This document shows positions 34,966-61,893 of a stretch of DNA of 64,000 nucleotides, piece after piece. This stretch comes from Chara braunii (lineage: Eukaryota > Plantae > Charophyceae), in the NCBI GenBank assembly GCA_003427395.1, contig BFEA01000018.1, positions 1,584,098 through 1,648,097 on the forward strand. The letters run 5' to 3'. The translations under genes were made by a program, and so were the position numbers. The notes under the pieces were generated by a model that did not search any database, had not been told where the DNA came from, and saw only the letters and a program-made list of their open reading frames with translations. The first letter of the stretch is position 1, and every line of letters starts with the position of its first letter.

Positions 34966-34995
34966 TGTTCGGTACGCTGNCGGAATTTCTTTGTC

Positions 34996-40920: not shown

Positions 40921-40928
40921 GTTTAGAG

Positions 40929-41366
40929 CTGTGTAGTATCGTGCTCGGGTTCGGTGACCGAACCCGAACGTTCGGGACCGAACGCGAACGAGCGCCAAAA
41001 CTTTCCGAACACGAACGTAAAAATATTTAAAAAAAAAAAAAAAAAAAANNNNNNNNNNNNNNNNNNNNNNNNNNNNNNNNNNNNNNNNNNNNNNNNNNNN
41101 NNNNNNNNNNNNNNNNNNNNNNNNNNNNNNNNNNNNNNNNNNNNNNNNNNNNNNNNNNNNNNNNNNNNNNNNNNNNNNNNNNNNNNNNNNNNNNNNNNNN
41201 NNNNNNNNNNNNNNNNNNNNNNNNNNNNNNNNNNNNNNNNNNNNNNNNNNNNNNNNNNNNNNNNNNNNNNNNNNNNNNNNGAACACGTTCGGGTGGCGTT
41301 CGGCCGAACACCCGAACATGTTCGGACGTTCGGAAAAGCTCCGAACATGTTCGGTGTGCTACACAG
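40929..41366. mobile_element. hAT-like MITE (contains an N gap)
   Basis: TIR CTGTGTAG...CTACACAG; 8 bp TSD GTTTAGAG at 40921-40928 and 41367-41374; CCGAAC/GTTCGG subterminal repeats. Confidence 0.88.
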
Positions 41367-41397
41367 GTTTAGAGGAGATAAATTGTATTTTGACAAG

Positions 41398-41664
41398 AGA
41401 CGATTCTGACGATCGTAGGAAGATCGTAGCCCGAACCTCTAAGAATCGGCCAAGGTCAGGCGGCCCGCCTCTCTTTACCCCCTCCTTCCAGATAAGCCGA
41501 CGGGCTCTAACCCACACGTATGCCCCTTCCCGGAAAACCTCTCCCTTCTCCACGCTCATCCAATAAGGAGTCACCCTGGGGTCTCCCGGAACTAAAACCC
41601 TCTCGGCGTCACTGACCTCTATCGATTCCACCACCCCGTTTTCACTGAGCATGAACTTCACCAT
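41398..41664 (-). pseudogene. Accessory ORF family alpha, truncated copy
   Basis: GAYVWV...GRFLEVRATIFL aligns with GEFVWV...GRSLEVTAVIFI of 41642-42328. Confidence 0.6.
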
Positions 41665-42328
41665 CTGCTATCATCCTTCTAAAGACCCACCTGCGATATT
41701 TTTCGGGAGAGAGAGTGAAGGGTTCTTCTAGAGACCTTAGTCTCCGAAAAATACCCCAGAGTTTTCTGCGCGGCGGAATACCCTGATTGATGCAATGCGT
41801 ATACAATATCCACAGGGCCCTGAAGGTAAGCCCCAAACTCCTGCCCCTCTCTAGAAGACACACTATCTTTCCCTCGATTGCTCTAGGGAACAGGTAAGAC
41901 GACACCCTCACAGTTAACGGGTAACTTGACCTCGGAAGCTCTCTTTCCCTTGCGAACCTCTCCCTTTTCATGGACACGAATGCAAATCGCTCTCTAACCC
42001 TACTTATCCACTCCCCTCTCACGTCTCTCGCCTCTCGCAACAATTTTTCCAGCCCACCCCCTTGTCCCAGAATTAGGGGTACTACAAGCTTCGTCAAAGC
42101 CTCCGGTGCAATGAAAATAACCGCGGTTACCTCAAGACTCCGCCCAAGACCTTGGCCTTCTACTTCTTTGGATTCTACCCACACGAATTCCCCACTAACC
42201 GTGGACCTCCCCCCTTCTATCCTTTCCCAATCAGGGACTTCCCCGTTGCTAGGGAATAGCCTAAGGGCCTCATGGTCCTCTAAAGAGGACTCTAAGAAGC
42301 ATCCCTGCTCTCTATCATGGAACACCAT
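41642..42328 (-). CDS. Accessory ORF family alpha, 228 aa, unknown function
   Basis: Intact ATG ORF; motifs IFIAPEA, ELPR, VSSYLF and LWILYTHC are shared with paralogs. Confidence 0.65.
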   Translation of the reverse strand: MVFHDREQGCFLESSLEDHEALRLFPSNGEVPDWERIEGGRSTVSGEFVWVESKEVEGQGLGRSLEVTAVIFIAPEALTKLVVPLILGQGGGLEKLLREARDVRGEWISRVRERFAFVSMKRERFARERELPRSSYPLTVRVSSYLFPRAIEGKIVCLLERGRSLGLTFRALWILYTHCINQGIPPRRKLWGIFRRLRSLEEPFTLSPEKYRRWVFRRMIADGEVHAQ

Positions 42329-42332
42329 TCAT

Positions 42333-43075
42333 TTAGAACATTCTCTGCAGTACCCCGAAGACCCTTTGGTATCCGTAGTCCCTTCCCCCCTTGCGGTCCC
42401 GGGTAGACTCCCTAAAGATCCCCGCACGAATCCTCCATGCCTTGATCCCGTATGGTGCCGGGTTATCCACGCAATAGGTGTAGTACCAATGGAGCGACCT
42501 AACAGGGAGCTGCCACCCCCTTTCTCGCACTATGGACCGCACAACCCTCTCGTATCGCTCCTCCTTCCCGGTCACCCTTCGAAAAACGAACGACGGGAAT
42601 ATGGCTCTGATGCACCCTGTGGCGCGGGGGTACTCTTCGTCTCGCGCGCAGATCACCCTTACCTCAACGGGTGGGTAGTGTCTAAGGGGTTCCGCCTCAA
42701 AGATCTGCCTCAAAATCGGACCCGCTTGTGCCTCCCAATGATCCGCACGGTACCAACCCAGGACCAAGTGAGTGACGTAATCGACCCAGGCCTCCTTACT
42801 TAAGTAGACAGTTCCTTCCGCATGGATCACTGGTCGCCTGGGTCTCTTCCCGCTTAGGGGCCTGTTCTGGGACCACCTGTCCCCCTCCCAAGTTCCTACC
42901 GCGAAACGAGCCCAAAGAAAAACCCCTCGTTCTAATTTTAACCCTCTCTCGCGACCGGCTAGATACCTCTCCGTGCGATGGTCTAAGGGGACGATGAAGC
43001 ACTCCCTGTCTTTGCTTAAATCCGCCTTCTCTATCCGAACCCCTTCTTCCTCAGTACCCTCTATGATCCTAACTA
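42333..43075 (-). pseudogene. Accessory ORF family alpha (stop or frameshift in the N-terminal part)
   Basis: GVFLWA...VYLSKEAW...EEYPR...FPSFVFRRV...LHWYYTYC. Confidence 0.6.
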
Positions 43076-43434
43076 TCCCCTTGGACTATCTCTTCTATGA
43101 TTTGAACCAGCACTTTCCAATCGTCCGACCCGTCCAGGAAAGCGTCCGGAATAGTGGGAACAGGCCTACCCCCTCGTGAATACGTCCTACACCCCAACGA
43201 GTAGAAGTAGTTAATCTCGTAAGCCCCCAGCAGTTGCCTCTCGAGCTGTGCGTGACCGACCGCTTCCTCCCAGCTATCCAAATATCCTGCCTCTCTATCA
43301 ACACCCTCTTCTACGTACAAGGCTATGTCGAAGTGGCTGGTCCACCAGTAGAAGGTATAGCACCACACATTTACCCCGCCTCGATCACCTACACTAATTC
43401 TTGCGGGTTCAAACTCCAAAGGCCTCAAGCTCAT
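43069..43434 (-). CDS. Accessory ORF family beta, copy 2
   Basis: MSL...VNVWCYTF...YVEEG...YFYSLG.RTY.RGGRP.P.I.DA.LDG. Confidence 0.6.
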   Translation of the reverse strand: MSLRPLEFEPARISVGDRGGVNVWCYTFYWWTSHFDIALYVEEGVDREAGYLDSWEEAVGHAQLERQLLGAYEINYFYSLGCRTYSRGGRPVPTIPDAFLDGSDDWKVLVQIIEEIVQGDS

Positions 43435-43790
43435 GTATTCGCCGCTCTCACAACTCTCTCCACAATCCGTACTAACACTTTTCATTCATCCGCCCCATCG
43501 AGATAAGCGTCCGAAATTACCGGCGCCGGGCGACCACCTCTGGGGTAGGTTCGATATCCTAGCGAGTAGAAATACTTGTACCCGTCACCCCTCAATTCCT
43601 CCCGCGAACCGCGGGAGTGGCGTATCGCCTCTTCCCACCCACGAAGGAAGTCCTCTCCTTGATCTTGTCCTTCCTCTACATAGACACCCACATCAAAGTC
43701 ACCCGTCCATAGTCGAAAGGAGTAACACCAAACGTCAACACTTCCGTACGTACACACGCTAATCCATTTTGGAACGGCTTCTAGGCTCAT
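43431..43790 (-). pseudogene. Accessory ORF family beta, copy 1 (W-to-stop at 43482-43484)
   Basis: Clearly paralogous to copy 2; its TGA overlaps the next ATG (ATGA at 43431-43434). Confidence 0.6.
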
Positions 43791-45949
43791 ACAGTATAAT
43801 CAAAGGAAAATTCCCTAAGTTCATATTTCCTTTTGGCCACTCGAGAGACCACCTCTATCCCGCAAGGAAAAGAAGCCTGTGAGCTCAGAAGGATCAAATG
43901 GACCAGAGAAGGAACGCCGTCTCACTCGGCTACCTTCCTGTCCTCCCCCGCTGAGTGACTCCTCCCCACTCCCGGCCTAGAGACTAGCCGCGGACACAGG
44001 TTATCCCCGAGGAAGGGTGGCAACCCCCTCCCCGGAGTCGGACTGAAATCACACACTCGGGTCCGATGTCCCTCACTGAACCAACCTCTAGTCCTTAGTT
44101 AGCCTATCCGGTACCACGCCTCTACCCGGCCCACCTCAAGCGTGGAATTACCCGGGTCCCAGGACAAGATCCACCTATTTATCAGAAATCACTAGCTTAT
44201 CTACTCCCTCCCCACTCTCCTCATCGTGAACTCTTCGCACTTCGTTTCCTTCTTCCTTTTCCGCCTCCCGCTGCCTCTTTTCTCTCTTGGAATCACTGGA
44301 AAATCGGAAAGTTAGAAAAAAAATGGGGTGAGAAGAGCGGAGCTTTAGGAAGAGGCTCTCAGGTAAGGTTGATAAGTATACGTACCTTGAGTCTTCAATA
44401 TTCGTTATCATAGGCCCAATAGTCCCCCAATTTCGAGTCCGAGAAATCGGCTAGACACCGGTCCACCCAGGGTGCGGCCTCCGACCACTCGTCCAAGGTC
44501 CCCCAAGTACCCCCTTCTTCTCTAACGCCCTCGCTAAGATGGGTCGGTGTGTCTCTTTCTCCCATTCGCCCCGGTACCCGTAACACCACTCTCCTCTCCC
44601 CCAAGTCCCGAACCGGTCCCGTTTGAGAGTTCCGCTCCCTTTTGGGAGTTGGAACCGTCGTCAGCCCTCGCGGGTCGAGAACCGAAGCCCCTATCCCTTC
44701 TCTAGACACCCTCTTTCGTGCGGGACTTTGCCCCCGGGTGGGTGCCCTCCACAACCCGTGCGGATCAAGAATACTTGGCGACCCCCTTGGGTCCCAAATA
44801 GACAGCGCCCCCGGACCCTCTCGGCCCTCTCTCTCCTCTTTCCCTCTCCACCTTTCTCTCTCTACCCCTTAAGCAGACCCCCTTACACTATTTTCCCGGA
44901 CTGTTCTTCTTCCCACCCTTTTGTTGTTCTTCACCCTCATTCAGACCCCTCAAGCAAACTGTGCACCCCCTTAATTTTTAAGTTTTTAGAAATAAACATG
45001 CGCAAAAACCAAGCACACAAAAAGAAACTGACCTGCTTTACCCCTCGAAGGCCGGAAGCGGGAGNCGANATCGNAAGCNNGCCGGAGCGGACCTGCAAAA
45101 AAGCCAAGGAGACAAGCCCAATACCCAAAGCCCCTCGCACCCGACAAGCCCAACAACAGCCCCTCNCCCCCCAATAAAACTCTCGCCGATGCCGCTTGAG
45201 AAGAACCNCNTAGANCCNGATGAAGACTACCTTGAAGCCGTNTGCCGAAGGACTTGATGCCGAAAATTTGCAGAACGCCCCAGACTCTCCCTACCGCTGC
45301 CTGTCACGCTGGTCCTCCCNTTACACCGNGTCCTTTGAGCNGGCCNCGGCCGCGGGAGAAANGCTCATCCNTNGCAACGGCGCCNCTTTGTCCGNCAACT
45401 CTNCCGGNTCCCCTTGCCAACGTTCCCCCAACGATGCCCCGNCCCTTTNTGATANCGGCCCTCNCCCCGTATTCCTACGTTCGACCCGCCCGCTAAAANG
45501 TTCCCTATANNGAGGNCCGAATCGAGCCCCGAGGTGTTTGAGATCGCGCCCGAGAGGAGAGAGGGGGATGCGNNATCNCGGTTGGNGAACTCTGTCGGAC
45601 CCAATTCGGGCCTTAAGCAGGGAGTCGGCTGTGCATATTCAAAGTAAACTTAGCTTGACAGTCACTTGGNGCANAAGTCAAAAGCNGCCCAGGACTTTAT
45701 GAGCNAGTTCGNANCGNGTCGCGGCCANCCTTCGACTGACCCGTAGCGGACAGGGTGTCCCGGCACAGACCTGCGGAAATTGGAACCAAAAGCAACTCCA
45801 ACAAATGCCAAGAAAGTGTACTGCGGTGGGCTCGAGAGCATCGCCAGCCGCGTAGAGGTCCTGACTCGGAATCGGAGATGAGACCGGTTGTAAACTAAGA
45901 CCCAGACGAGCCGACTGCTGGACAGAGTGTAAACTCGGGTGAGGGGCGA

Positions 45950-46170
45950 GAGTAAACTGCAATGGTTCGGTCGCCCACCCGACTTCGACTCGAAACGCGA
46001 CAAAAGGTGAAAATGCGGATTTAAGCGAGAAGCCAAATAGCTTAGCCACCGACACGACTTCGACTCGAAACGGGACAAAAAGATGAGAATGCGGGTTTAA
46101 ATGAGAAGTCAAAGTAAACTGTAATAGCTTAGCCACCGACCCGACTTCGACTCGAAATGGATCAAAGGTA
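45950..46170. repeat. ~70-85 bp tandem repeat (cgacttcgactcgaaa core), 3 copies
   Basis: Cores near 45980, 46055 and 46142. Confidence 0.8.
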
Positions 46171-46439
46171 AAAAAAAACAAGCTCAAGTGAGACTCCGGG
46201 CGGAGGTGATCTCGCACAGACTTGTCAAAGTTTCCTGACCGATTCGTTCAGCCGGCCTCTGCTCCCCTGCTTCTACCTTAAGCCCGGCGAGCGGAGGTCC
46301 GCTGCTGAGCTTCCGCCCCCACCCTGACCTCGGATCAGATACAAAAAGAAAGGAAAAATAGATGCCGCTCGAACACTCCTCGAGGCGTTCCCGAGCTGCC
46401 GGCCCTTCCTCCCACTTTTTCTGTCCCCTCCCTTCCCCT

Positions 46440-46580
46440 TTTTCCCCCTACTCCTCTCCCTTTTTCGCTCTCTGTCTCTCTCCCTCTCTTTCTCTCTCTT
46501 TTTCCCGCTTCTCTCTCTCTCTCTCTTTCTCTCCCTCTCTCTCTTTCTCTCTCTCGCTCTTTCTTTCTCTCTCGATCTCA

Positions 46581-46620
<40 letters not shown>

Positions 46621-46710
46621 ACTCTCTCTCCCTCTCTCTCTCTCTCTCTTCTTCCTCTCTCTTTCTCTCTCTCTCTTTCTTCTTTCTTTTCTCTCCTCCT
46701 TTCTCCCCCT
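46440..46710. repeat. (CT)n-rich tract
   Basis: Read directly from the sequence. Confidence 0.9.
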
Positions 46711-49289
46711 AGTTTTTTCGTTTCCCTGCGCCCGACACCCTCTCGTCAGTAAGCAAGGTAATTCGAAAAACAACAAACTCCCGCCAGCATAACTCTTCGC
46801 TCTTCTCAGTGGTGTGGTGTCGCCGTAAGACCTCCGGCCTCTCTCAGGTGACACTTCTGAATTTCTTCCTCTTTGCTGGGCCTCTGCGGCGCAAGCTCCG
46901 AGCTCGAAACTTGGAGACAGAGATCCCTGAAGTGCTCCTCCCTGCAGCTAGTAGGCGATCGCGGTGCTAAGGGACCTACGCAGGTTCGGTTCGGCGAGTG
47001 ACCTTTCTGCATTAGTGCGTGCGAGCACTCAGTCGTGGTATGTCCCGAGCTCTCTCCAGTCCGCCAGGCCGCACGTCCGTCGTTCCCTGTTCGAGAGTAG
47101 CGCTTCCGAGCTTTTTGAAGAGGCGCGCCACCTCCGCCTCCCAGGGTAACTCTTTCCCCCAGATTCTCTCGCCTCCCGTGCACTGTGCTGCCCGGGCATC
47201 TGAAGCGCCCTGCAGGACGACACCTCATCCCCTGTCTCCTCGTCAGTCCTAGGGCCAGACGACGACGTAACTCCGTGCGCAGGGCGTACGTTTGCTCCAC
47301 ACGCACGTGGCGAACGGTCCCGGGCGCCTACCCCCTTGCCTCGCCGTCGATCGCCGCTCCTCCTTTTGTGGAGCACCTATGGTTACTTCCGAGCAACCCC
47401 GCCCCGCGGCAGGCCCGCCTCGCTCTCCCTCTTTCGGGAAAAGCTAACGCCTCTTGAGCGCTGCCCGCGAGACCGCACGACTACGGCTTCCCCCGGATCG
47501 TTCCGGCCCGTGCTCACCTCGCTTGCACCGTCCTCTTCCTTCCTGGCACTGTCGCTCGGTGATTGCTTTGAACTCGTGCGCATACTCCCGTACTCCTCCG
47601 CGCTGGCCCGCGGGGTCGTTCGCACGTGCAGCACCGACTGATGGGGGCAAGTGCGCGTGTACGTGCGTTCTCCCTCGTGCGCGATCCCCTCTCCTTCCCT
47701 GGCGCTTACTTATATACTCCTTTCTCCCCTCCGTCGATCCGTCCTTCTTTTTTCCCCTCCAATCACCACCCCTCCTACTTTCCTGGTCGTACTTCTCACT
47801 CTCCCCGTTCTCCCGCCAGTTGCTTGTCAAATTTTTAGCTATTTTTCGTCAAATCTTCAATCTCCCGCCTCCCCAGTTCCCAAGATCGCATCCTCCGCAT
47901 GGAACTCAGGCGGGAATCAGAACCTTGGCCTCGATCTCTAGCTCCAGCGTCCCCGCAGGTGACGAGTACCAACGACCGATTCTCATCCAGGTGCGCGAGC
48001 AACTCACACTTCCCCCTTTTTGAGCGGTTACCAAGAAACTCAAGGCGCAAGAAGCCGAAAAATTCCAAGTCCCGCCTTCTTTTCCTAATCCCTCTCTGTT
48101 TCCCTCCTTCTCCTCTTTACTGATCCCTCACGTAGATCCCTCCCAGTAGGGTTCCTCGTACTTCTGGTAACGGACTGACGGAGTTCGTATCTGTGATCCC
48201 GATTCACCCCCTCCACTTTGTTCGTAGATTCCCCGATCCTTTGCTCACTCGGCCGTGAGTGCATCTCCCCGTGAACACCGTTCACATTCCGTGGTCCTCG
48301 AACCGCCGCCCTTGATGCCACCTGGGCCACCCCCCTTCGGCGGTTGACAAGAAGCCTGCGGCGCTCTTTTCATCCTCATACGGTTAGAACTCAGATATAC
48401 CAGCTCATTTTTTTTTCCCTCTTTTCAAGATATCTACGCCCAGGCTTTGGCGTGGATGGTTGGGGAGGGTAGCTACCCACTGTACTGCAATCGAGCACCC
48501 TGAGCTTCGAGAGACCATGCAGACTCACAGGAAAACGCTTCCTTTCACAAAGATTTACCATTTGGCCCTACTGTATCGACACAGTTCCTCCTGCTTCCAA
48601 AAAAAAAACAGGCCAACAGCGGACTCCGGACTCATAGCCAAAAACCCGAGTTCCCCGTGCCAATCTCTCTTCCGGGGGCGGCCACACCGGAGCCGCGGGT
48701 TTGTTCCCAAGTCTCATAATGCCCCAGTTCACGCTAGGTAAAAATGCCGGCCCCACTCAACCGCCCTCCTTCAAGCCGAGGTGACCCCCACGTCCTTTTC
48801 TCAGTCGAACCCCTTCGCTACAGGCGTGCCCTTCTCCCTTCGAACGTCTTGCTCTCGGATCCACGAGTCGCGGCTCTCCACCTCCCTCCTTGTTTTCCAA
48901 GATGGCTCGCCCCTTTCTCCTGCCTCTGCAATTTCCTGACCTTCCTCCTTCGCCCCCCTAGTTGGCAAATGCACGTGCGAGCTCTCCGCCTTCAACCGTC
49001 TTTCCTGCTTCCTTCAAGCAGGTGAGTCGTGGCCCCACCTACTTCGCTCGCAACCTGCCCACTGTAGACCCCCAAATCCGCTGACGGGGAAGTTGTCATC
49101 GCTCCGGGACCCATCAAGTTGCAGCCACTATCCTTGCCTTGACTGCCTTTTCGTCGAACGTTGCTTTCGCTGCAGCGGGTAATGGTGGAGAGGCCCGGCC
49201 TCTTCTCGTAGTCAAACCCGGCCCCTCACGGGTTCCTTCTCTCCGGATCTCTTGCGGACCATCCCAAAGTCCACCGGCAATCCAGCTTT

Positions 49290-49560
49290 TTAGTTGGCAT
49301 CGTACGATTCCTTCAGTACAGGGTGCACAATCAGCTCTGGACTGTAGCTCTTAATCACCGGGCCCGCATCTTTGGCACAAAAGACACGTGCTTTTGCTGC
49401 AAAATATGGAGTCTCGGTGTATTCCCTGCAACCTCCCACAACAGCTATCTCACCTGCCTGGCCTTTGTGTTTCCCTGGGGATAATTGTGGAACAAATGCC
49501 CGAATCGCGGACAAGACACTTTCGAGGCTGCTCCACAGCATCCTTGCGTCTATTTGCCCC
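49290..49560 (-). pseudogene. NAXD: Captured fragment of ATP-dependent NAD(P)H-hydrate dehydratase (NAXD/CARKD)
   Basis: [33 protein letters not shown][deletion][29 protein letters not shown], matching the plant NAXD N-terminal half. Confidence 0.9.
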
Positions 49561-50554
49561 ACCTTGGCTTGTTCCGCTTCAACTTCTTCTCCCCTTCTCT
49601 TTTCTTCTCCCTTCACCTCCTGACTCTTAGTTGTTCGTTCTGCGCCGGCAATTCTCCCATTCGATCGATGGCCAGCTGCCGTCTCTGACGAATCGAACTG
49701 CAGTGCCGCGCCAGTCGGCTGATCCCTCGAAATAATGCTTGTGGTTGCAATATTTCATCGAATGGTGTAAATCAGAGTTTTGGCAGGAACAAATCGCGCC
49801 TCGCCGCTCCACAATGAATTTTGCGCGTGCTCGCATCAATCCCCTTTCTTCTTTTTCTCGTGAGGCCTCCTATCCCGGTGCTTGGCCCCTCATTCACCCC
49901 ACTGCTTTTGACTCGGCCAAGGTCCATTCTGACTTGCGCCGCCCGCCCCGTATTCTCTGTCTTTGACTCCAAAACTCCAATCTTTTTGGATCCGCCCGAG
50001 CCTGCTTGCGACCAAGGCGGGGACCGCTACTCCAGCCGATTGAAAGGGTTAGCATGAAGGCCCGAAGGCCCGAGGACATCAAAAACATCATACCTGCATG
50101 CATGCATACGTCAAAACCAAGCAAAAAAACAGCAACGAAGGAAAAAACGTTTTCCATTTTTAAAGAAAAAAACCATCGGCTGGTAGGCAGTCGCCCGACA
50201 ACCAGCCCACACCCCATTTCTCGACGTCCCCGGCGAGTCTCTTTCGTGACCCCTTTCTTTTTAACCACTGCCCCTAACCCAATGCTTACCCATGAAAAGT
50301 TTCTTCCGTTCCATCTCATTTCCCCGGTTAGGCTTCGTTGTATTTCTCTTTTTACTAGACTCGACCCTACCGTTTAGCCGCAACGCCTTCAATGACCCAC
50401 GACACATGACACCAGTGTATGGTACAATACCCTCCCAGGATTACGACCCATCGCCCCTTACGACACCCGTTTCTCTAACTGTGGTACATTATGGCGTATC
50501 ACCTTTCCCGGGACACGTTTTCCTAACTATGGTACACCATTCTTCTCCCCTTCT

Positions 50555-52439
50555 CTATGCCCGTCTCCGTCTCCTCATCCTCCTCTCGCGCCTCTCTCTC
50601 TTCCGTTTTCTCTCCTTTCTCTCCCGTTTGAGTCTCAGGGCCATTCTTGACGCATTCCTCCTGTCGCTCAACCTGTATTCCCTTAATCGGCCAGCATCTC
50701 CGTCATCCTCTCTCGGTCGTTTCGTCTTCCTAGGGGTTTTTGGTAGGGTAGGTTTTCGGACCTTATATCCTTTCTTTGGTGGTCGAGAAGAGGCTCTTTG
50801 TTTGGAGGTCTCCCTTTTTTCGTGCGTCGCAGTCACCTCTGTGTCAATAGCCTCCTTTCCTTTCCGCTCCGGCTCCTCCCCAAGGGTCCCTCTTGATCGG
50901 AAGATTTTGAGGCGAGCCCCTGCTATAGGATCCCGTAGCCTACTCCCATCTAGTTCAGTGAGCATATAAGCCCCCCCATCCAATCTCTTTAGGACCCTAT
51001 ACAGCCCCATCCATCGGTTTGCCAATTTCCGGCTCCAGGTCTTTTCAAGTGACGAATCGTACATCAGCACTAGGTCGTTAACCCCTATCGGCGCCTTTCG
51101 GACCCACAGATTTTTGTCCCACCTATCCTTACTTTTTACTGTCTCTCTCTCTCTCGACATTCTCGCTAGCCGTGGTCATCCTAGTATCAAAGTTCTCGGC
51201 TATTTTTTGTATCCGTGCCTCCAACAATTCACCCCTAGACATGTTGGCTTTCCATGAGACGCTCGTCCAAGTGTCAATGTGGAATTCGATGGTAGAGGAC
51301 AATGCCTACCGAACCAGAGGGTGTAAGGAGGATACCCCGTACTGGATTTGACCGTGATATTATCGGCCCAAACTGCGTACCGCAAATACCTCGGCCACTG
51401 TTCCGCGCGCCCTTTGCACCATTTCGCTAGAGCGTCCACAAGAGTCTGGTGACCCCGTTCTACCGGCGCGTTGCTTTGGGGGTGATAAGCGGTCGTATAG
51501 GCTGCCCCTATTCCCACCTTTTCCAATAACACTTTTACCTTTTGGCTCAAGAACTTTGCGCCTCTATCCATAACTATTCCCCCGACACACCCGTACCGCG
51601 CGATATATTCAAGGAGAAATTCACTTACCTCCTCAGCTGTCTTCTTTTTAATGGCCTTTGCCTCTACGAACCCGGTGAGGTCATCCCGAGCGTTGATTAT
51701 ATACCGAAGTCCGCCGACCCCTTTTCGGCATGGTTACTAAATCTATGTGGACCTTCTCTCCCGAAACCGTGGGAAGCGATGGAACTAAGGGTTCCTTGTA
51801 TCGAACCGTTGCCCTCTTCTGGCAAGCCTCACATGTTGAACAATACTTTTCCACTTCCGTGTATTGCTTGTCCCACCAATAAAGCCTACGGACCTTATCG
51901 AAAGTACCCTTCACCCCCCTGTGACCTCCAACGACCCCATCGTGTAACTCCTCTATGACCGCCCTTCTCTCCTCCGGATCGCACAACACCCTCATGGGTA
52001 TCGCAAACTTAGTGGGTCTTTTGAAGAGATGGCCTCCCCGCAGACAATACCCCAGCGCCTCTTGCTGGATTCTTCCAGTCCCTGTTTCCCTACCGGCCAA
52101 GTACAGTCCTATGTCTCGGTACTTCCCGTCGTAGAGATTTGCGAGAAAAGTCATTGGGCCCCCTTCTTCCCCTCGGCTGCTTCCCGCTATTTGTGGCCTA
52201 TTAGCGGCGACTTTCATTGTCTCCTCTTTGGCCATTGTCACTTCTTCCTCCTTAAGCCTAGGTAGGTCCTCCTCACGAATGGGAAGCCGGGACAATCCGT
52301 CTGCGACCTGGTTCTTAGTCCCCGATATCCTCTCGACCCTATAGTCGTAAAGCCTAATATGAATAATCCAGCGTGCGATGGTCGGATCGGTCAGCGATAA
52401 ATATTTTTGGAGGACAGCGGCCACTGCTGTCGGGTTCAC
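50555..52439 (-). pseudogene. Gypsy RNase H C-terminus plus integrase (frameshifted)
   Basis: LHDGVVGGHRG...CSTCEAC (HHCC), HIDLV, DRGAKF, YHPQSNAPVERGH, GPY-like RWMGLYRV; no chromodomain. Confidence 0.92.
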
Positions 52440-52454
52440 CCTGAGAAGAAATTG

Positions 52455-54190
52455 TCACCCGTATAGGTAATGACGGAAAGCCTTTAGGCAATGCAGTACC
52501 CCTAACACCTCCTTTTTGAATTGGCTATAATTTCTCTCGGCGGGGTTCAAGGTCCGGCTTTCGAATCGCAACGGTCTCTCTTTCCCCTCTCCGTCCTTTT
52601 GTGACAGGAGGCCTCCCACCGAGTGAGGTCCCGCGTCCGTGGAAACTATAAAGGGGCGATGCTCCTCATCTTCGAAGAAAGGAACTCCTAGGACCTCTCC
52701 GACTTCGCGGAACTCCCCCTTTAAGGCTTCCATGGCTGCGACCTGTTCTTCTCCCCAAACCCATCCTTCCGATTTCCTAAGGAGTCTCCGAAGGGGTTCT
52801 GCTTTCTCTCCATAGGCTTTTATGAAGATTCTCCAGTAGCCCACAACCCCTAGAAACTGTCGGACTTCCGTTATGGACTTAAGCGGTGACGGCCAGGTCA
52901 TCAATTTCACTAATTTTTCGGGGTCGGGCCTTCGCCCATCCTTATCGCAAATGAACCCCAGTATCTTGATGGAGGACACGCCCCAACGACTCTTAGCTCC
53001 GCTTACCGTGAGGTTGGCATCATCTAACTTCTCAAGGACGTTTCTGACATCACTCATGTGGTCGGCCACGAATTTTGTCACCCCCGGGAAGACCTCCGTC
53101 TCATCCCGTTCGACCGACCCTTTTATCGGGAAGTCATCTAGGAAGACCTCCACCTTCTCCGGTATGAACTCCTTGAGGACCGTGATCATGGCCCTTTGGA
53201 ACACCGCTACCCCATTCGTCCAACCCATTGGTACCACCATCATTTGAACCAGCCCTAAAGGCGTATGCATGGCGGTCATGTGCTTGTCTCGGTAATCTAA
53301 AGGAATCTCATCATACGCCGAGAAGAGGTTGCAGATAGAATATATTGAGTGATCTGCCGGTCCTTCAGCTAGCAAGTCGGCTTCAGGTATGGACCCCACG
53401 TCTCTTATGGTGACCGCATTGGTCCTTTGGAGGTTTTGAATCCATCTCAGTTTGTTGCTACCCCCCTTCCTCAGAAAGAACCACTTATTGGAGTAGGCAC
53501 TCTCACAAGGTTCCGCGACGAACGTCCTGATCTTTTCCTTGATGAAGGCTACTATCTCCTCTTTCTCCTTTTGAGCGTACTTCCACTGAGGGCTATCCTT
53601 CCAAGGCACGTGCGGGACCGTGTGGATCCGGGCCGGCTTAGCATACCTTGGGTCGATTCTCCCTCTCTCCGAGTCATCAAAGGCAATGACCTTATCGCAG
53701 TCCCTTAAGGTCATGGCTATGAACTCTTTCTCTTTCTCCGTGAGATTCCCATCCCCTATATCCATCTTGGCCAACCTATCGGCCGTTATCCTTTGCCCTT
53801 CGGTCTCTTTCCTTTTCCTGATGATATCAGCGATCTCCTCCTCCGATATCGTAGCTTCCCTCGTTCTATCCCGGCTGACCGCGGCGGGCTTTACTTTCTC
53901 CGCCACGGTTTTGTGCTTCTTAACTCTGCCGGCTAGGGGGATACCTCCAAAAAAGACATACTCACGCATCCACCGAACTCCTCCTCCTCGTCCTCCTTCT
54001 CGTACCCCATACCGTTAATGAAAATCCTATCCCCTACGTCCTCGACCTTCAATTGGTCCCCCTTGGGACCCCTATCCGCCAAGGGCACCTCCTCCAGACG
54101 GACTCGGCACACCCTCGACTGACTCCCCTTGCGTCTAGCAATGCTGGTCCGGTTACGTTCATCTTGCGCGTCTACGGTCCTTAGGACTAC
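52455..54190 (-). pseudogene. Gypsy reverse transcriptase plus RNase H
   Basis: LRWIQNLQRTNAVTIRD, PMGWTNGVAVFQ, FLDD, FLGVVGYWRIFI, TDAG, ERNYSQFKKEVL. Confidence 0.95.
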
Positions 54191-57100
54191 TCAGATTTCA
54201 TCAGGACTTTGGATCGAGAGGGTCTGACTTCCATCCGGCAAATCAACCGTGGTCGCGTGTACTGCGCTCAGCCAGGTCCTTTCGAGGATCAATTCGGAGA
54301 AGCACTCTTTTATTGAAAAGATCGGGACTGTGGCCTCTACGCCAGCGACTTCAATCACGGGACTATGACACACTCCTTCCGCCGGTTGCAGCTTGTTATC
54401 AGCCCCTACCATTGACATCGATACCCCTCGATCTATCTCCAAACCCAGTTCCCGGGAGTCCCTACACACCGTAGACTCGGACCCGTTATCCACTAGGGCC
54501 CTTATTTTCTTCCCACTTACCACTGCCTGGAGCTGGCCGCTACCTAACACGTAGAATTTCTTGGCCTCTTCTCCCGAGAAGAAGTTGGCAGGTAGTTCCT
54601 CCATGGTAACGCGGGAGGCCTGTACTTCTTCCTTGGCTGGACCCTCCACCGGTACCGTGGGCCCCCATGCGAGCGGGACTCTTACCTTCCTCGTGATGCT
54701 TAGGAGTTTTTCCCTGGCGCTTTTCCTGGCGGCTAGATATTCCAAAAGTGTGCACTGCATAGGATGCATCAGGGTCCTCCTAAGGGGGGCTACTGTGTCT
54801 ATCTCATCCAGAGTGCACTTCATTTTGAACTTTTTGGGCCCCTTTTTTTTAGGCGATTTGGGTGAGGTGGGCTCTTCCTTCTTTTCCTCCACCGCTTTTG
54901 CATCAGCCATCGGTTGGTCATTGTCGCCGCTCCTTACTTCCGTACCCTCCGTCACGTTAGCTTGGCTCTCAGACGTCTCGGTCCCAACCTGCGTTCTCAC
55001 CCTTAGGCAAGACCTCTCTTCCTCGGGCTGGGTTTCTATAAACTTAATGCTTGACACCTGGGGTTCCCTAATGGACACCCCCCCCGATGACTCCGTCATT
55101 TGGATATGGGTTGTGTTGGAGGAGCTCCCGACTTCCGGTTTCTTCCCCAACCTAGCCTCCTGGAGGGCCATCCTTTTGTCTACGTTCACCTTCATTGATG
55201 GGTAAAAGGAGACCGCCTCTCCGCTATCTCCCCACACAACCCACTTGTTCTCATTCAGTTTGACCACCCCCAATCTTAAGGCCTCCGTGAGATAAGGGCA
55301 GTCCCTCTTGATGTGATTTTCTTCATTGCAGTAGACACACCCGTTTCGAGCTTGTGGGTTGTTGGGGCGCGGACCCCCTTGTGTGGCCGTCGCTATAGGC
55401 GCAGGTGGAGTCGGTGGCGGTGGTGCCGGCGGCGGTGATGCCCTAACCTCCGGTCGTGGCCCAAAAGTCCTTGCTTGAGGGGTGTCTCCCCATCTTCCAT
55501 CCCTAGCATCCTTCCAATGGGAACTCCCCCTATCGGAACCACGATTCCCCCCTATCTCCCGGTCGTTCCTCCAACCTCCTTGGCCACTTGATTCGTTCCT
55601 CCATCCGGTCGGCCGTTCTCCCCACCGGGGACCAGGTGGCCCCGGGGGCGGTCTATCGTTCCCCCTCGGACCATCGTTCCGCGTGCCTCGGATGTTGCAG
55701 AGTGTCATGTCCAAGGTCTCCTTCATGTAATCCCTCACATCTACTCCTCCCTCCGTGAAAACCACCTCCGTGACTTTATCGAAATAGGCAGAATCCCTCA
55801 GGGCCTTCTCAAGGACCTCTTTCCTATTTTTCTCGGGCAGGTGTAGCATGAACATCACGCACCTATCTACTTCAGATAGCATACCCCTATCCACTAGGGC
55901 TTGGGACAGGCGCTTGAACCTACGGGTGAAGGCTACCAAGCTCTCCCGTTCCCCCCTTGTGATTCGTCACAAGCCCTCCACGGTCGGGATCTGGTCATCA
56001 CAGGCGAAAGTCTGCAATAGGCTCGCCTTGAAGGTCCTCCACTGTCCGTCTGAGGGGTAGATAGCCCGAATCGCGGGGTGTAACTCGGGGTCCGAGTGCT
56101 GGATAAAATAGTCGATCCACTCCCTTTCGGAGAATCTTTTACGGTAAGCATAACTCTCTCATTTCTCCACGAACCCAGTCACATCCCGTCCGTCGAAGAA
56201 AAGTGTCTCCAGACCTAGGTTGACATCGTAATAAGGGACTCGTCGGTTGTCGTATCGGCGAAAATAGGGACCTTCCATTGGGCCATCGATTGCCGGGTCG
56301 TACGGCTTGTACCACGAGGGATCCGACTCCTCCACCCGGCCCCGGGGTCTAGGCGGTTCCCAGGGGTCTTCCCCGTAGCGGCCTCGCTCATCCAGCCAAT
56401 CCGTCTCCCACCGAGCGGGGCCCTGCCCCCTAAAGCTCCTCCAGGCCTCCACCCCCTGATTTCTGCCCGTTATCTCGTCGGGAACCCGGACAGCATCCGT
56501 TTCTCTTACGACCCATCTTCGTGGCCTACTACCTGCCTCCGCCGGCCTCTTGTCTCTAAAGTCCCTTCTACTCGGTCCCCCCTCCTCTTCTCTCCTCGGT
56601 GGCCGGTAACCCAACCTATCTCTTGAAAATTCGAGAGCTTCTCCCATTCTTGTGTCAGGTAAATCCGCCCACCGAGACTCTATAGGAAGGCCCCTCGAGC
56701 CCTCGATCTCCCCTTCTCGCGTAGGCATTCGCATCTCCGTGCCAGTTCTCGGCCCCACTAGAGAGAAGGTTAATAGATGTCTTTATTTTCATGTTATTTT
56801 CAGCTGCTTCAGACGGGTGTGAGGTACTTGGATGGGAAAACCTGAAACTACTTTCAAAAGCTTCAACCACTTCAGGTCATTTCAGAGGTTTCAAATTCCC
56901 AACCGGAACTCCTGTAATGACTTGAAGTGGCTGAAGCTTTTGAAAGCGGTTTCAGGTCCCCCTATCCAAGCATTTGGATGGGGGGACCTGAAACCGCTTT
57001 TAGAAGCTTCAGCCATTGCATATTATTTCAGAGGTTTCAGATCTCCCCACCTGAAACTCCTTAAATGATCTGAAGTAGCTGAAAATCTGAAAGCGGTTTA

Positions 57101-58280
57101 AGAGGTTCCCATCCAACCATTTGGATGGGGGGACCTGAAACCTCTTTCAGAAGCTTCAGCCACTTCAGATCATTTCAAAGGTTTCAGGTCTCTCCATCTG
57201 AANNNNNNNNNNNNNNNNNNNNNNNNNNNNNNNNNNNNNNNNNNNNNCATCTGAAACTCCTGAAATAATCTGAAGTGGCTGAAAATTTGAAAGCGGTTTC
57301 AGATTCCCCCATCCAACCATTTGGATGGGGGGACCTGAAACCACTTTCAGAAGCTTCAACCACTTCAGATCATGTCAGAGGTTTCAGGTCTCCCCATCTG
57401 AAACTTCTGAAATAATATGAAGCTGCTGAAAATCTGAAAGCGGTTTGAGATGCATCAATCCAACCATTTGGATGGGGGGACCTGAAACCGCTTTCAGAAG
57501 CTTAAACCACTTCAGTTTTTTTCAGAGGTTTCAGGCCTCCCCACCTGAAACTCCTGAAATGACTTGAAGTGGCCCACAACAACGTTGATCAAAACAAAAA
57601 CAGGCAAAAAAAAAAAAAAAAAAAAACATAAAATATTACCCCAAAACCAGCTGTAACTCCTGAAATGGCATGAAGTGTCTTCATGTCATTCCAGTGTTTT
57701 CAGGCTTCTCCTAACAGACTTCAGGATCTTTCATTCTGAAATTTCAGGAGGTCGTTAACCACTTGTGCCCCACTAAGACCTGCCTTTCACCGGTGACGGC
57801 CTCCGGCCCCCTTTCGACCCATCTCCGTGGCCTACCGCCGGCTTCAGCTGACCTTCCTTCTTTTAAGTCCCTCCTGTCCTGACACTCCTCTTCCTCCCTC
57901 CTAAGTGGTCGATACCCCTGTCTATCTCTAGGAAATTCCCGTGCTTCCTCCAACCTTGCTTCCGCATCCATTAGGTCCGCCCACCGGGATTCCACCGGAA
58001 CGCCTCTTGCGGCCTCGGTGACCCCTTCGTTTACCGACACCCGTGGCCCCACATCCCTGTGCACTCGCATTTCCGTGCCAGCTCTTTGCCCCTTTGAGGC
58101 ATGTCTCTCTCCCGAAGCCATTTCCGGAACCCCCTCGGCCCTATCTAGCGTCTCTGCTCCCTCTGTCATTTTTTCCACTACCCTACTTAGACTGGCCCCC
58201 AACTCGGGGCTATTCACTATCCCCCTTCTTTCAGTGGTTTCCGGCGGACTAGCGAGACCAGCCTCTACTTCACTCTCCAT
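54191..58280 (-). pseudogene. Gypsy gag plus aspartic protease, interrupted by a MITE at 56761-57767 and by stops
   Basis: FFDGRDVTGFVE, the zinc knuckle CVYCNEENHIKRDC and the protease ALVDNGSE...LILERTWL; the frame runs RQVLVG|PRTG across the MITE. Confidence 0.9.
56761..57767. mobile_element. 8-bp-TSD asymmetric-end DNA transposon (relative of 15381-15832)
   Basis: TSD CCCCACTA at 56753-56760 and 57768-57775; ends GAGAGAAGGTTAA / TTAACCACTTGTG; internal palindromic repeats. Confidence 0.92.
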
Positions 58281-58472
58281 GCACCCTTATTGACAATTTC
58301 TAGTCGCCTCCCTCACTATCGTCCGCGTTACCTTCCGGCTCGTCCCCTTCACTACTGTCTGCGGTATCTTCCGAGTTCTCTTCTTCCTCCGATCCCCCAT
58401 TCTCCACACTAGAATCCTCGTCAGCACCCTCTCCCTCCGACTCCTCGCTGGTCACCGTCCACCAAGAATCCC

Positions 58473-59189
58473 TCAGTTTCTTCTCCTCGCTGGCGGCCAA
58501 CGCAAGATTCGCATCTCCAGGTCCGAGATGCCCCTAATCCCTTCTTGCGCACACCTCCTAATCAAGTCCCTGTCCACATCACCAGCTTGTCCAGAGAACA
58601 GGGGCTTGATGAACTCTCCAACGCGCGCCCACCACTCGAAGTCGGTGTCCTCTCTCGACTCCCAGCACTGGGTGAATAGCTCGTGCCCTCCTTCTTCACC
58701 CAGTGGGAATTTTTCTATCACCTGACCCCTCAATCGGACTCTTCTCACGGTCTCGTCGTCCGCATAGAGTAGTCGATAGGCCCAGGTAGGGATAGTCCAA
58801 GTTCTCCCGTGGGCTGCCCTTGGAACATCCGTCCTCCCTCGGTACTCTACCCTATCAATCACGGGGCCCTCCGGGCCACCCCCTCTCAATCTCCTTACTC
58901 GTTCCAGGGCCCTTTTGGCGATGCCTAGAGGATCTTTCCCTTCCGCCAATTCAGTTGCGAAGATTAGCCGGGCGTCAGGGGACAAAAACATTTCCGCCTT
59001 TCTCGTACAATTGTTCCCCTCGGACGCCACTAAAAACCTGACCACTGTCTCCTGCTCGTAAATTTCGAAGAACTCGGTAGTCACTTCTCCTTCCCCTCTC
59101 ACTCTCGGGAGAGTTACTCCATATCGTCCTCCCCACGTCCGAGCTCTTTCTATGGTACCAACGGGGTCCCCCCTCTCGTACCGAATCAT
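58473..59189 (-). CDS. Accessory ORF family alpha, 238 aa, upstream of gag
   Basis: VTLPR, MFLSPDA, TDVPR, IPTWAY, GHELFTQC. Confidence 0.65.
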   Translation of the reverse strand: MIRYERGDPVGTIERARTWGGRYGVTLPRVRGEGEVTTEFFEIYEQETVVRFLVASEGNNCTRKAEMFLSPDARLIFATELAEGKDPLGIAKRALERVRRLRGGGPEGPVIDRVEYRGRTDVPRAAHGRTWTIPTWAYRLLYADDETVRRVRLRGQVIEKFPLGEEGGHELFTQCWESREDTDFEWWARVGEFIKPLFSGQAGDVDRDLIRRCAQEGIRGISDLEMRILRWPPARRRN

Positions 59190-59198
59190 CCGGGGTCT

Positions 59199-59675
59199 TC
59201 ACCTTACGTCGGCCAACCTTGCGGCGGCCGCTGCAAGTGAGTCCTCGCACCTGGTGTGTCCAGTCTCTTCGTCCTCTTCCGGTGTTCGGCGCAAAACCTC
59301 TTTGTACTCTGCCGACCTATCCCAAAATCGGGTCTCCACAAGGTGCGTCCTAGACGTCAGCGGTGTTCCTAGATATCTAGAATCTTCTTTGAATCTTCTC
59401 TCTACCTCTAGCAAAGGTTCCCTCCAAGCCCTTGAGGATCTTATTCCACTTACGTCTCTAATGTGGATTGAAAAGTTGGCTAGTGTGGTCCAACTCCTTC
59501 TTTTCCACAAGGCCAGGCGTCGGACCTCTACTAGAAACTCCTTCTCGGCGCGGGCCATTCGGTCCTCTCCCAATTCTGGGTTAAGCTCCGCACTCCCCTC
59601 GACCCTAACCTCGCTAACGTCCTCGCAGGTCTCTAATTCCCAACGAATCATATTGGAGACGAACGAGGCTCTCAT
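59199..59675 (-). CDS. Accessory ORF, 158 aa, unknown function
   Basis: ATG ORF packed between neighbours with 4-9 nt gaps; same Arg/Glu/Trp-rich composition. Confidence 0.5.
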   Translation of the reverse strand: MRASFVSNMIRWELETCEDVSEVRVEGSAELNPELGEDRMARAEKEFLVEVRRLALWKRRSWTTLANFSIHIRDVSGIRSSRAWREPLLEVERRFKEDSRYLGTPLTSRTHLVETRFWDRSAEYKEVLRRTPEEDEETGHTRCEDSLAAAAARLADVR

Positions 59676-59848
59676 CCCCTCACCCCGTGAGAAGATCTAT
59701 CGTGACCTCGTCGAGGATAGCGATTGTGGTCGTCTCAAGTAGCTTGATTCTAGCTAAGGACCCAGACCTAGCTCTCCTTTCTTCCTCCCAGCACAGAGCG
59801 AGGATCCGGTGAAACTCTTCCCTCACTCTATCCAACCCCACAAGCCCC

Positions 59849-60627
59849 TCAAGGTCCGGCTCGTTCATCTCCTAACTTCCGTCGACGACACACAATAGCT
59901 ATCCGAATCAAATTTGAGGGGTCGAACCCCGCTAGCTCTCCCTCGCAGATCTTTCCGAAGTATCTCCACGATATCTTAGACTCCCTCACGTGCCGACCCC
60001 ACCTTTCAAAGGCGTAACCCAGGTCCTCTAGAGTCGACCAATCGTCTCTATAGGGATCCCAAAAACACCAAGTTAACAAGGTATGGAGGTCCGATCTTGT
60101 GAACCTGAACTCACTTAGGATGGAAATCCTTCTTTCTACTGCCCTCTTAGCAGCTTTGGAGGGGTAGACCCGCTCAAAAATGAAACGGGGGACCTCCACC
60201 GGCTCACTGGAGAGGAACCGTGGTATTTCTTCCCAACCCCCGCAGGTCACTAGATACTCCTCGTCGCACCCTTCGTGAGGCCTCAATTCCTCTACTAACT
60301 CTCCTAGCCGGCCTCTCACGGCTCGAGCGTCCCAGAGAGGGTCTTGCCCAATCCGTAAGCTACGCGCTATCTCCACAAGGCCTTCCTTGGAAAGGAATAT
60401 TCGGGTTTCTCCAACTACGACCTTCCCCTCGCGACTCACTGCAAACCGTATGAAAGCCTTACCTCGCCGGATTTCCCCTTCTTCTCGCAGGAGAGTCCTA
60501 GTTGGCTCAATCAGTCTGGCCCTAGGTAGAGTGACACTGACAACCTCCCCGGTATCCTCTATGGGCTCTATGGACGCCCAAAGAGTCCTCGGGATCCCCC
60601 TTATAATCGGCCCTCGAAACCCCGCCG
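59849..60627 (-). CDS. Accessory ORF family alpha (open frame, no ATG seen at the 5' end)
   Basis: VTLPR, IFLSKEG, EEIPR, VPRFIFERV, DLHTLLTWC. Confidence 0.6.
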
Positions 60628-60748
60628 GTTAGACACCTGCTCTTCTCCGAAGAGGCGGGCGTACGGAACGTCCGCGACGAGGGATCAGAGTCCCTCAAAC
60701 TCTCTCAACCTCCCAAATATGGCGGATAGCTCACTCCTTGGGAGAATT

Positions 60749-60761
60749 CCCGCGTCCACGC
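60749..60761 (-). promoter_or_regulatory. Primer-binding site position, complementary to its own LTR (putative self-priming)
   Basis: GCGTGGACGCGGG lies directly after the LTR end and pairs with CCTGCGTCCACGC at 61358-61370. Confidence 0.6.

Positions 60762-61820: not shown

Positions 61821-61893
<73 letters not shown>

What the first reader, a model, noticed from the sequence alone, without database searches (positions are those of the whole stretch)
41398..60627. Expanded family of unknown accessory ORFs on both sides of gag-pol
Seen: at least five divergent paralogs (59849-60627, 58473-59189, 42333-43075, 41642-42328, 41398-41664) share an ordered signature: [IMV][FY][LI][SA]xE/D, then [ED][ILVY]PR, then a hydrophobic-[PS]-x-[FWY] block, then [LG][HW]xx[LYF]TxC. 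The truncated copy shows only the N-terminal part. Two lie upstream of gag and three or more downstream of pol, all in sense. No transmembrane env-like features or known domains were recognised. Inference: a diversified virus-like accessory gene family, e.g. silencing suppressors or ligands of the LTR motif arrays.
Basis: partly seen in the sequence, partly recalled or inferred. Interest (0 to 1): 0.85.

Follow-up and report, generated by a model that had tools for sequence, protein, structure and literature searches.

The report
Split nine-gene retrotransposon accessory block
A jumping gene of the alga Chara carries five related extra genes with no known relatives outside such elements; other copies show that they normally sit in one tightly packed row in front of the usual genes (not on both sides, as this broken copy suggests), and they likely encode helper proteins that would blunt the host's control of the element.

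Summary
The five ORFs are real paralogs: each scores 21-62 bits against a profile built without its own subfamily, shuffles at most 7.9. The 'both sides of gag-pol' layout fails. The 'truncated copy' (41416-41664) and an overlooked stretch just before the first upstream ORF (60616-60759) are the two ends of one gene that is whole in another copy. Of 27 relatives, 15 carry the domain 5' of their own gag/pol and none 3' of it. So this is one ~5.2-kb block of nine tightly abutting sense ORFs in front of gag of a Chara Ty3/gypsy element, here decayed and in two misplaced halves. A second Chara gypsy family expanded the same domain separately. No Pfam, PHROG, PDB or Atlas match; 24 of 27 relatives are named Chara braunii, 3 unnamed. 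A model (pTM 0.62) shows an alpha+beta domain plus helical bundle without invariant catalytic residues; best fold match is weak (chimallin N-domain, Z 5.7). Function is inferred (counter-defence adaptors). dN/dS was not measured. The scan reported this block earlier on other DNA of this genome (e1-10416625, e1-10416624).

The parts
43482..43790 (-). D0a, first ORF of the block, second small family; early stop in this copy
   Evidence: 54% identical to D0b; all laid contig depth differs from the window at the stop
43069..43434 (-). D0b, paralog of D0a (121 aa), unrelated to the main family
   Evidence: (hhalign probability 0.1)
42333..43076 (-). D1, paralog 1 of the main family; start codon lost in this copy
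   Evidence: (62.4 bits leave-out)
41642..42328 (-). D2, paralog 2 (228 aa), intact ORF
   Evidence: 21.1 bits leave-out; 68-78% identical to P0004-P0006
41416..41664 (-). D3 N-terminal piece (residues 1-83 of whole D3 in P0017)
   Evidence: 67 of 83 identical
60604..60759 (-). D3 C-terminal piece (residues 192-239 of P0017), with an internal stop in this copy; abuts U1
   Evidence: 37 of 48 identical
59849..60607 (-). U1, paralog 4; start codon lost in this copy
   Evidence: 50.5 bits leave-out; 63% to P0013
59680..59868 (-). U1a, 62-aa ORF filling the gap between U1 and U1b
   Evidence: no Pfam match; no relative among the 27 proteins
59199..59675 (-). U1b, 158-aa ORF unrelated to the main family
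   Evidence: 71-76% to P0005
58300..59189 (-). U2, paralog 5, with acidic tail; frameshifted near 58512 in this copy
   Evidence: P0001-P0003 and P0008 run on into the tail; 29.2 bits leave-out
57744..58280 (-). 5' part of gag (U3), cut off from the rest by an insertion
   Evidence: runs straight into gag in P0005, P0006, P0013
56770..57765 (.). insertion with 147-bp palindromic tandem array, flanked by a 9-bp duplication
54191..56782 (-). gag-protease, broken
   Evidence: zinc knuckle E 0.0074, aspartyl protease E 0.0015
50555..54014 (-). pol in Ty3/gypsy order RT, RNase H, integrase; broken into four frames
62542..64000 (-). 3' part of a long LTR ending in TGACA (runs off the window)
60822..62541 (-). 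PBS-like site and leader shared with a very abundant element family; joins D3 C-piece near 60762
38546..41414 (+). inverted LTR (ends 41395) plus decayed PBS-like site, meeting the D3 N-piece head to head; holds an insertion 40929-41366 with the N gap and an 8-bp duplication

Best explanation
This is a decayed Chara Ty3/gypsy retrotransposon whose nine tightly abutting extra ORFs, five of them paralogs, lie here in two separated halves but by the evidence of other copies form one block in front of gag, likely translated from the full-length RNA by stop-start reinitiation and likely encoding non-enzymatic binding proteins that would counter host silencing or defence. Shown: homology of the five; D3 is one gene in other copies; order D3-U1-gag and D2-U1b-U2-gag in gene models; junction gaps of -23 to +19 nt; separate expansion in a second gypsy family; conservation similar to gag. 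Inferred: the complete order D0a-D0b-D1-D2-D3-U1-U1a-U1b-U2-gag (pieced from overlapping evidence, no single intact copy read here); translation mode; function. The paralogs would act as adaptors: a variable alpha+beta domain that grips a host target and a helical bundle, in the last paralog followed by an acidic tail, that recruits or blocks a partner; duplication plus divergence to about 20-30% identity would widen the set of targets.
For: Leave-out homology 5 of 5. P0017 spans both D3 pieces, P0013 runs D3-U1-gag, P0005 and P0006 put D2 upstream of gag. Of 27 proteins: 15 have the domain 5' of own-family gag/pol, 0 have it 3' of own-family pol, 4 have it after other exons, 8 stand alone. 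Nine junctions have gaps of -23 to +19 nt, two are 4-nt stop/start overlaps (three junctions use start/stop positions seen in other copies). Summed block 5162 nt. Accessory ORFs diverge about as gag does in the same gene model: P0013 D3 77%, U1 63%, gag parts 47-58%; P0017 D3 77-81%, gag-pro 82%; P0008 U2 88%, gag-pro 79-89%; P0005 D2 71%, U1b 76%, gag 82-88%. No indel at 25% share in the D half. Paralogs group by element family in the tree, family B at 99/97. No invariant polar residue; the invariant columns are Gly, Leu, Pro. ATG is depleted in the D3C-U2 half (12 against 26.8+-3.9, 0 of 200 shuffles).
Against: No functional evidence of any kind. dN/dS could not be measured; gene models are spliced predictions that can join neighbouring elements (P0001-P0004 do). 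D0a, D0b and U1a have no relative among the 27 proteins, so their place rests on adjacency in this window. ATG depletion is weak in the D half (23 against 29.3+-3.9, 15 of 200), antisense ATG is equally low in both halves, and a 23-kb control region is also below its shuffles. No TGGGA within 90 nt at 0 of 9 junctions, so no calicivirus-type tether is seen. RNA: zero reads over the ORFs in X6 (upstream half) and X8 (both halves); X7 gives depth of about 1-3 on both strands, also over non-coding DNA.
Confidence: 0.42

Rival explanations
1. Same single 5' block, but the paralogs are sequence-specific binders of the element's own LTR/leader motif arrays (VANC-like demethylation or Rev/CERV-like RNA export).
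For: The LTR holds repeated short motifs (families D7, D9, D17). VANC proteins bind motifs arrayed in tandem in their own elements (PMC5735166, passages); CERV exports Cer1 genomic RNA (PMC10309623, abstract). D1 is basic (+13) and some Arg columns recur.
Against: Net charge runs from +13 to -12, with the four non-window representatives tested at -2 to -12. No DUF1985/DUF287 or other Pfam match. No nucleic-acid-binding family stands out in the fold lists. That this LTR is the element's own is inferred, not shown.
Confidence: 0.22
2. The paralogs are subunits of one hetero-oligomeric structure (protective shell, inclusion body or movement tubule) for the element's RNA or cDNA.
For: The only match that spans the whole N-domain is the N-terminal domain of phage chimallin: Z 5.7, rmsd 3.7, 111 residues, next unrelated N-domain row Z 4.2; that fold is rare (10.1101/2022.02.14.480162, passages). 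Translational coupling would suit fixed stoichiometry.
Against: Z 5.7 is under the tool's background of 7-8; identity 8%; chimallin's large C-terminal domain has no counterpart; model mean pLDDT 66; Foldseek has no match at E 0.001.
Confidence: 0.14
3. One reading: two arrays flank gag-pol within one LTR pair.
For: The window does show family members on both sides of gag-pol in the same sense with no copy of the long LTR between them; 4 of 27 gene models have the domain at their C-terminal end.
Against: D3 is one gene split between the two groups; in P0002 and P0003 the RT ahead of the domain is only about 31% identical to this element's RT, against 88% for a family member; 0 of 27 have the domain after own-family pol; the LTR beyond D3 is inverted.
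Confidence: 0.04
4. The ORFs are passengers: captured sequence duplicated in a long leader, kept open by chance or high GC.
For: Two of three RNA libraries show nothing over the ORFs; dN/dS not measured; the 53 best-supported differences scored between this copy and others are 43 nonsynonymous, 10 synonymous.
Against: Those differences are mostly private to this decayed copy. The domain is kept across paralogs at 20-30% identity and across two gypsy families, with foldable covariation (pTM 0.62), tight stop/start junctions and gag-like conservation.
Confidence: 0.06

Closest known systems
Plant Ty3/gypsy elements with a 5' sense extra ORF (Tekay 5' aORF; extra ORFs of the Ogre/Tat/Athila superclade; PMC6317226, PMC11728184, PMC7264820)
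   Same: LTR retrotransposon with conserved extra coding sequence of unknown function upstream of gag, long LTRs and long non-coding regions.
   Different: Nine ORFs instead of the one to three described in the passages read; five are tandem paralogs; no Pfam domain of the known extra ORFs; no chromodomain or additional RNase H detected.
Caulimoviridae polycistronic pregenomic RNA (CaMV TAV reinitiation, RTBV leaky scanning) and calicivirus AUGA stop-start (PMC5902531, passages)
   Same: Consecutive ORFs with gaps or overlaps of a few to about 40 nt ahead of the capsid/RT genes.
   Different: Has integrase and LTRs; no TAV, movement-protein or TURBS-like match found; translation mode untested.
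VANC anti-silencing proteins of VANDAL transposons (PMC5735166, passages)
   Same: Fast-diverging transposon accessory proteins, motif arrays in non-coding DNA of the element.
   Different: DNA transposon; DUF1985/DUF287 domains absent here; DNA binding not shown and charge pattern does not suggest it.
CERV of C. elegans Cer1 (PMC10309623, abstract)
   Same: Novel accessory protein of an LTR retrotransposon that can serve the element's own RNA and assemble into large structures.
   Different: Single protein from a spliced mRNA; no sequence relation found or tested directly.
Chimallin N-terminal domain (PDB 7sqt, 7sqq)
   Same: Weakly similar alpha+beta arrangement over the model's N-domain (Z 5.7, rmsd 3.7, 111 residues).
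   Different: Below background Z; 8% identity; chimallin's acetyltransferase-like domain is absent; phage protein.

Membership tests
Ty3/gypsy LTR retrotransposon | gag, protease, RT, RNase H, integrase in that order | tested here: met
Ty3/gypsy LTR retrotransposon | two direct LTRs with target-site duplication around this copy | tested here: inconclusive
   one sense LTR end with PBS-like site at 62542; the other LTR is inverted; no duplication found; copy is rearranged
Chromovirus (Tekay, Tcn1, Chlamyvir) | chromodomain after integrase | tested here: not met
   no chromo match at E 0.1 in the window's pol pieces or in P0014, P0019, P0022; RT phylogeny not run
Tat/Ogre/Retand | additional RNase H domain (PMC6317226 section 9) | tested here: inconclusive
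   none detected by Pfam at E 0.1, but pol is broken and no dedicated profile was used
env-like ORF | sense ORF between pol and 3' LTR with transmembrane segment (PMC7264820) | tested here: not met
   native position is 5' of gag; 19-residue hydropathy maximum under 1.1 in the family members tested except D2 (2.01), whose stretch aligns with a strand-helix of the soluble core
VANC | DUF1985 / DUF287 domains | tested here: not met
   0 of 21 members match them at E 1
VANC | binds a motif arrayed in its own element and removes methylation | not testable with these tools
   needs binding and expression assays
Termination-reinitiation cassette (calicivirus type) | stop/start overlap | tested here: met
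   4-nt overlaps at 2 of 9 junctions, all 9 within -23 to +19 nt
Termination-reinitiation cassette (calicivirus type) | upstream 18S-pairing tether (core motif recalled as UGGGA) | tested here: not met
   0 of 9 junctions; 0.28 expected per 90 nt
PC4/PUR/Whirly single-strand binders (resemblance recalled from the G-x-[IV]-[YF]-L-S-x-E-x-W motif) | beta-beta-beta-beta-alpha fold | tested here: inconclusive
   whole-protein model searched only; N-domain could not be folded alone
Chimallin | N-domain fold plus acetyltransferase-like C-domain, self-assembly | tested here: inconclusive
   N-domain Z 5.7, rmsd 3.7, 111 aligned; no C-domain counterpart in a 250-aa protein

The most novel reading that the evidence does not exclude
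These Chara elements are a complex, virus-like lineage of gypsy retrotransposons that translate nine accessory proteins from one RNA and use the five paralogs as subunits of a self-assembling compartment, built on a fold shared with the phage nuclear-shell protein chimallin, that hides the element's RNA or cDNA from host silencing.
Probability: 0.06. Interest if true: 0.92.

Novelty: new variant of a known kind. Interest (0 to 1): 0.55.

Why it matters
What the extra ORFs of plant LTR retrotransposons do is an open question (PMC7264820, PMC6317226). A block of nine coupled ORFs with an expanded, alignable, foldable protein family, repeated independently in two element families of one alga, is far beyond the one to three extra ORFs in the papers read. 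It offers many natural variants for selection tests, a clear translation question (how ribosomes reach gag behind nine ORFs) and proteins small enough to express and solve. The correction also matters for the scan: the flanking layout is an artefact of a broken copy and should not be carried forward.

Tried and rejected
No whole genome was held, so copies could not be read as DNA and dN/dS was not measured. U1 alone found 0 of 1189 candidates. Exact look-up: 0 of 10 window proteins in the collection. Atlas: no usable hit for U1 or P0023. PDB sequence search: nothing under E 0.2. Pfam and PHROGs on 21 members: no family hit by more than one member. Viral contigs and metagenome contigs: no relative. 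First model from 5 sequences unusable, pLDDT 37. Foldseek PDB and viral: 0 at E 0.001. PC4/PUR/Whirly chains were not among the listed rows; this does not exclude them. Homodimer job: no answer, score 0.00, alignment not used. No RNA holder listed in the run index. Rice-paddy run X5 touched only the repeat at 41290-41414. Syn/nonsyn count from laid contigs rejected as a selection test because it scores changes private to this dead copy. D0 pair and U1b are not members of the main family. His/Cys metal site rejected: absent in the second family. A clean LTR insertion into D3 rejected: similarity to P0017 ends at 41416, a PBS-like stretch lies between it and the LTR end, and no duplication was found. 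Literature searches for a description of this block found none; the Chara genome paper and its supplements were not seen and may bear on this.
Full report
Setting. The window is eukaryotic and repeat-rich. On the - strand, 56782-50555 holds a broken gag-protease-RT-RNase H-integrase run in Ty3/gypsy order. No whole genome was held. A profile of the five ORFs scored against 1.84 billion representatives gave 11 hits at E 0.001; 8 are Chara braunii gene models and 3 are unnamed. Two further searches with a nine-sequence profile added 16 proteins, all Chara braunii (only about 8000 candidates were scored in each). The host is therefore most likely Chara braunii (inference from 60-89% identical hits).

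Is the family real? Yes. Pairwise scores form a chain: five of ten pairs have shuffle z of 6.6-15.8 and the other five are at 2.1 or below. With relatives, each of the five subfamilies was left out in turn and scored against a profile of the rest: D1 62.4, D2 21.1, D3 51.4, U1 50.5, U2 29.2 bits; the best of 500 shuffles reached 5.0-7.9, one reversed sequence 9.8. A profile built only from a second Chara family found D1 at E 1.2e-9, and U1 and U2 as the next two of 1666 six-frame peptides (E 0.041, 0.19).

Is the layout real? No. P0017 begins with a whole D3. Its residues 1-83 match 41664-41416 (67 of 83 identical) and residues 192-239 match 60759-60616 (37 of 48), directly in front of U1. Residues 84-191 are absent from the window. 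P0013 runs D3, U1, then gag; P0005 runs D2, U1b, U2 end, gag; P0006 runs D2, gag. Counting all 27 proteins from their sequences and matches: 15 have the domain 5' of own-family gag or pol (5 of this family, 10 of the second), none has it 3' of own-family pol, 8 stand alone, and 4 (P0001-P0004) have it after other exons; in P0002 and P0003 the preceding RT is about 31% identical to this element's, so those look like chimeric models. Gene models are spliced predictions and can join neighbours, which limits this evidence. Beyond D3 the LTR is inverted and is followed by a decayed PBS-like stretch that meets D3 head to head. The N gap at 41049-41280 lies inside a small insertion with an 8-bp duplication, so it does not break continuity. 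The window order is LTR, PBS, leader, [D3 end, U1, U1a, U1b, U2, gag, pol, 5-kb stretch], [leader-like DNA, D0a, D0b, D1, D2, D3 start], inverted LTR. This can be two blocks of one element swapped, remnants of two tandem copies, or mis-assembly (42 single Ns at 45000-45800). I could not decide among these.

The native block. Joined in order, the ORFs D0a, D0b, D1, D2, D3, U1, U1a, U1b, U2 cover about 5162 nt, close to the 5105-letter nine-gene block that an earlier, unreviewed note of this scan placed between PBS and gag on another piece of this genome. That note gave me the nine-gene count and the single-RNA idea; the split-D3 and gene-order evidence is from my own calls. All nine junctions, including U2 to gag, have gaps of -23 to +19 nt, and two are 4-nt stop/start overlaps. 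Three of these junctions rely on start or stop positions where the window copy differs from 99-100% of the laid contig depth. The window copy is dead: lost starts in D1 and U1, an early stop in D0a, a stop in the D3 end, a frameshift in U2, an insertion in gag, frameshifts in pol.

Multi-copy and conserved. In DNA run X1, 17774 and 4641 contigs laid on the two stretches, with summed depth of about 260-2400 over the ORFs against 8-22 for single contigs, and 3e5-9e5 over the leader. This is no copy number, but it shows many copies and a far more abundant family sharing the leader. No indel reached 25% share in the D half; in the upstream half the listed indels inside ORFs were at 58512, 58870 and 59200 (one more row not shown). 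In four gene models the accessory ORFs diverge about as much as gag (figures under Best explanation). dN/dS was not measured. The 53 scored differences (from the 40 best-supported rows of each call, those inside ORFs) are 43 nonsynonymous and 10 synonymous against 29% expected at random; they describe decay of this copy, not selection.

A second family. P0010, P0012, P0014-P0016, P0018-P0027 come from another gypsy family with a different gag; P0010 has three copies of the domain ahead of gag-pol, P0014 two. In a tree of 23 domain rows (3 short rows left out), D1-D3 group together (91/88), U1 with U2 (99/95), and the second family with unnamed P0011 (99/97), midpoint root, long branches flagged. 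Separate tandem expansions are the simplest reading.

Structure. A five-sequence alignment gave no model (pLDDT 37). A 21-sequence alignment with P0011 first gave pLDDT 66, pTM 0.62, with 86-89 in the core blocks: strands at 24-85, two helices, two more strands to 153, then a helical bundle. This is a model of a relative, not of a window protein. Foldseek found nothing at E 0.001 in PDB or viral models. Against 48161 chains, 20 reached Z 5 and none Z 8; most listed rows are generic three-helix matches to residues 160-224, and the one full N-domain match is chimallin (Z 5.7, rmsd 3.7, 111 residues). The tool puts background at Z 7-8, so this is a lead only. The chimallin preprint calls that domain similar only to one uncharacterised protein (10.1101/2022.02.14.480162, passages). 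Invariant columns are Gly, Leu and Pro; no polar residue is invariant, which argues against an enzyme. Net charge runs from +13 to -12; U2 and the B1 subfamily end in acidic tails.

Expression and translation. Of three oligo-dT libraries, sampled at 6-13%, X6 (upstream half only) and X8 gave no reads over the ORFs; X7 gave mean depth 2.9 and 2.7 for first mates on + (the sense orientation in most stranded libraries) against 1.3 and 1.5 on -, also over non-coding flanks. This is compatible with weak transcription or DNA carry-over. Sense ATG is depleted in the upstream half (12 against 26.8, 0 of 200 shuffles) but only mildly in the D half (23 against 29.3, 15 of 200), and antisense counts are equal, so the leaky-scanning signal is weak here. 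The tight junctions resemble those of caulimovirus and calicivirus RNAs (PMC5902531, passages); no tether motif was found.

Mechanism. Most likely the block is read from the full-length RNA by reinitiation and the five paralogs are binding proteins in an arms race with the host. This rests on analogy and on the pattern of repeated duplication, deep divergence and retention; no target is known. Binding of the element's own motif arrays (VANC: PMC5735166, passages; CERV: PMC10309623, abstract) and assembly into a shell are the rivals.

Comparison and novelty. Extra ORFs in plant LTR retrotransposons are known, heterogeneous and mostly without function (PMC7264820, first third of the text; PMC6317226, passages and section 9; PMC11728184, passages). 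The passages read describe one to three per element. Four searches found no description of this block; the Chara genome paper and its supplements were not seen. I file it as a new variant of a known kind: a gypsy element with an unusually large 5' accessory block and an undescribed protein family. The scan has noted it twice on other DNA of this genome; new here are the refutation of the flanking layout, the leave-out homology test and a first usable model. Interest 0.55.

Noticed in passing
window 27119-27220 (+) and 24140-24241 (-): Two degenerate U6 snRNA-like copies above Rfam's gathering score; the first lies in DNA upstream of an LTR-like repeat, possibly captured.
   Followed up: no
window 35400-35510 (+): Stretch resembling large-subunit rRNA (recalled resemblance; Rfam at gathering threshold did not list it) inside the + strand element.
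   Followed up: no
window 49290-49754 (-): ORF with a sub-threshold match to NAD(P)H-hydrate dehydratase (E 0.075) in the 5-kb stretch after pol; may be a captured host gene fragment.
   Followed up: no
window 29829-41395 (+) and 62542-64000 (-): Three copies of a long LTR (77-89% alike) with arrays of short repeated motifs (families D7, D9, D17); the + strand element shows no gag-pol between its LTRs; 25782 and 34385 may be true LTR starts (68% alike over 180 nt), which would make the LTRs 6-7 kb.
   Followed up: partly
window 60760-61200: Leader segment with summed contig depth 1e5-9e5 and reads in all three RNA libraries; also present at 16556-16850 and 33698-34382.
   Followed up: partly
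window 57744-58280 and 56159-56782 (-): The N-terminal part of gag carries an internal duplication (52% identical) that is also present in P0005, P0006.
   Followed up: partly
window 40929-41366: Palindromic miniature insertion with short terminal inverted repeats and an 8-bp duplication, very high copy (depth 5e4), spanning the N gap.
   Followed up: partly
P0023, P0024, P0026, P0027: B1-subfamily proteins end in an acidic tail with a conserved Trp-Asp-Phe terminus, suggestive of a docking peptide.
   Followed up: no
window 18461-19954 (+) and 6428-7696 (-): Endonuclease-like ORF (Exo_endo_phos E 9.6e-5), probably a LINE, and a WD40 ORF.
   Followed up: no
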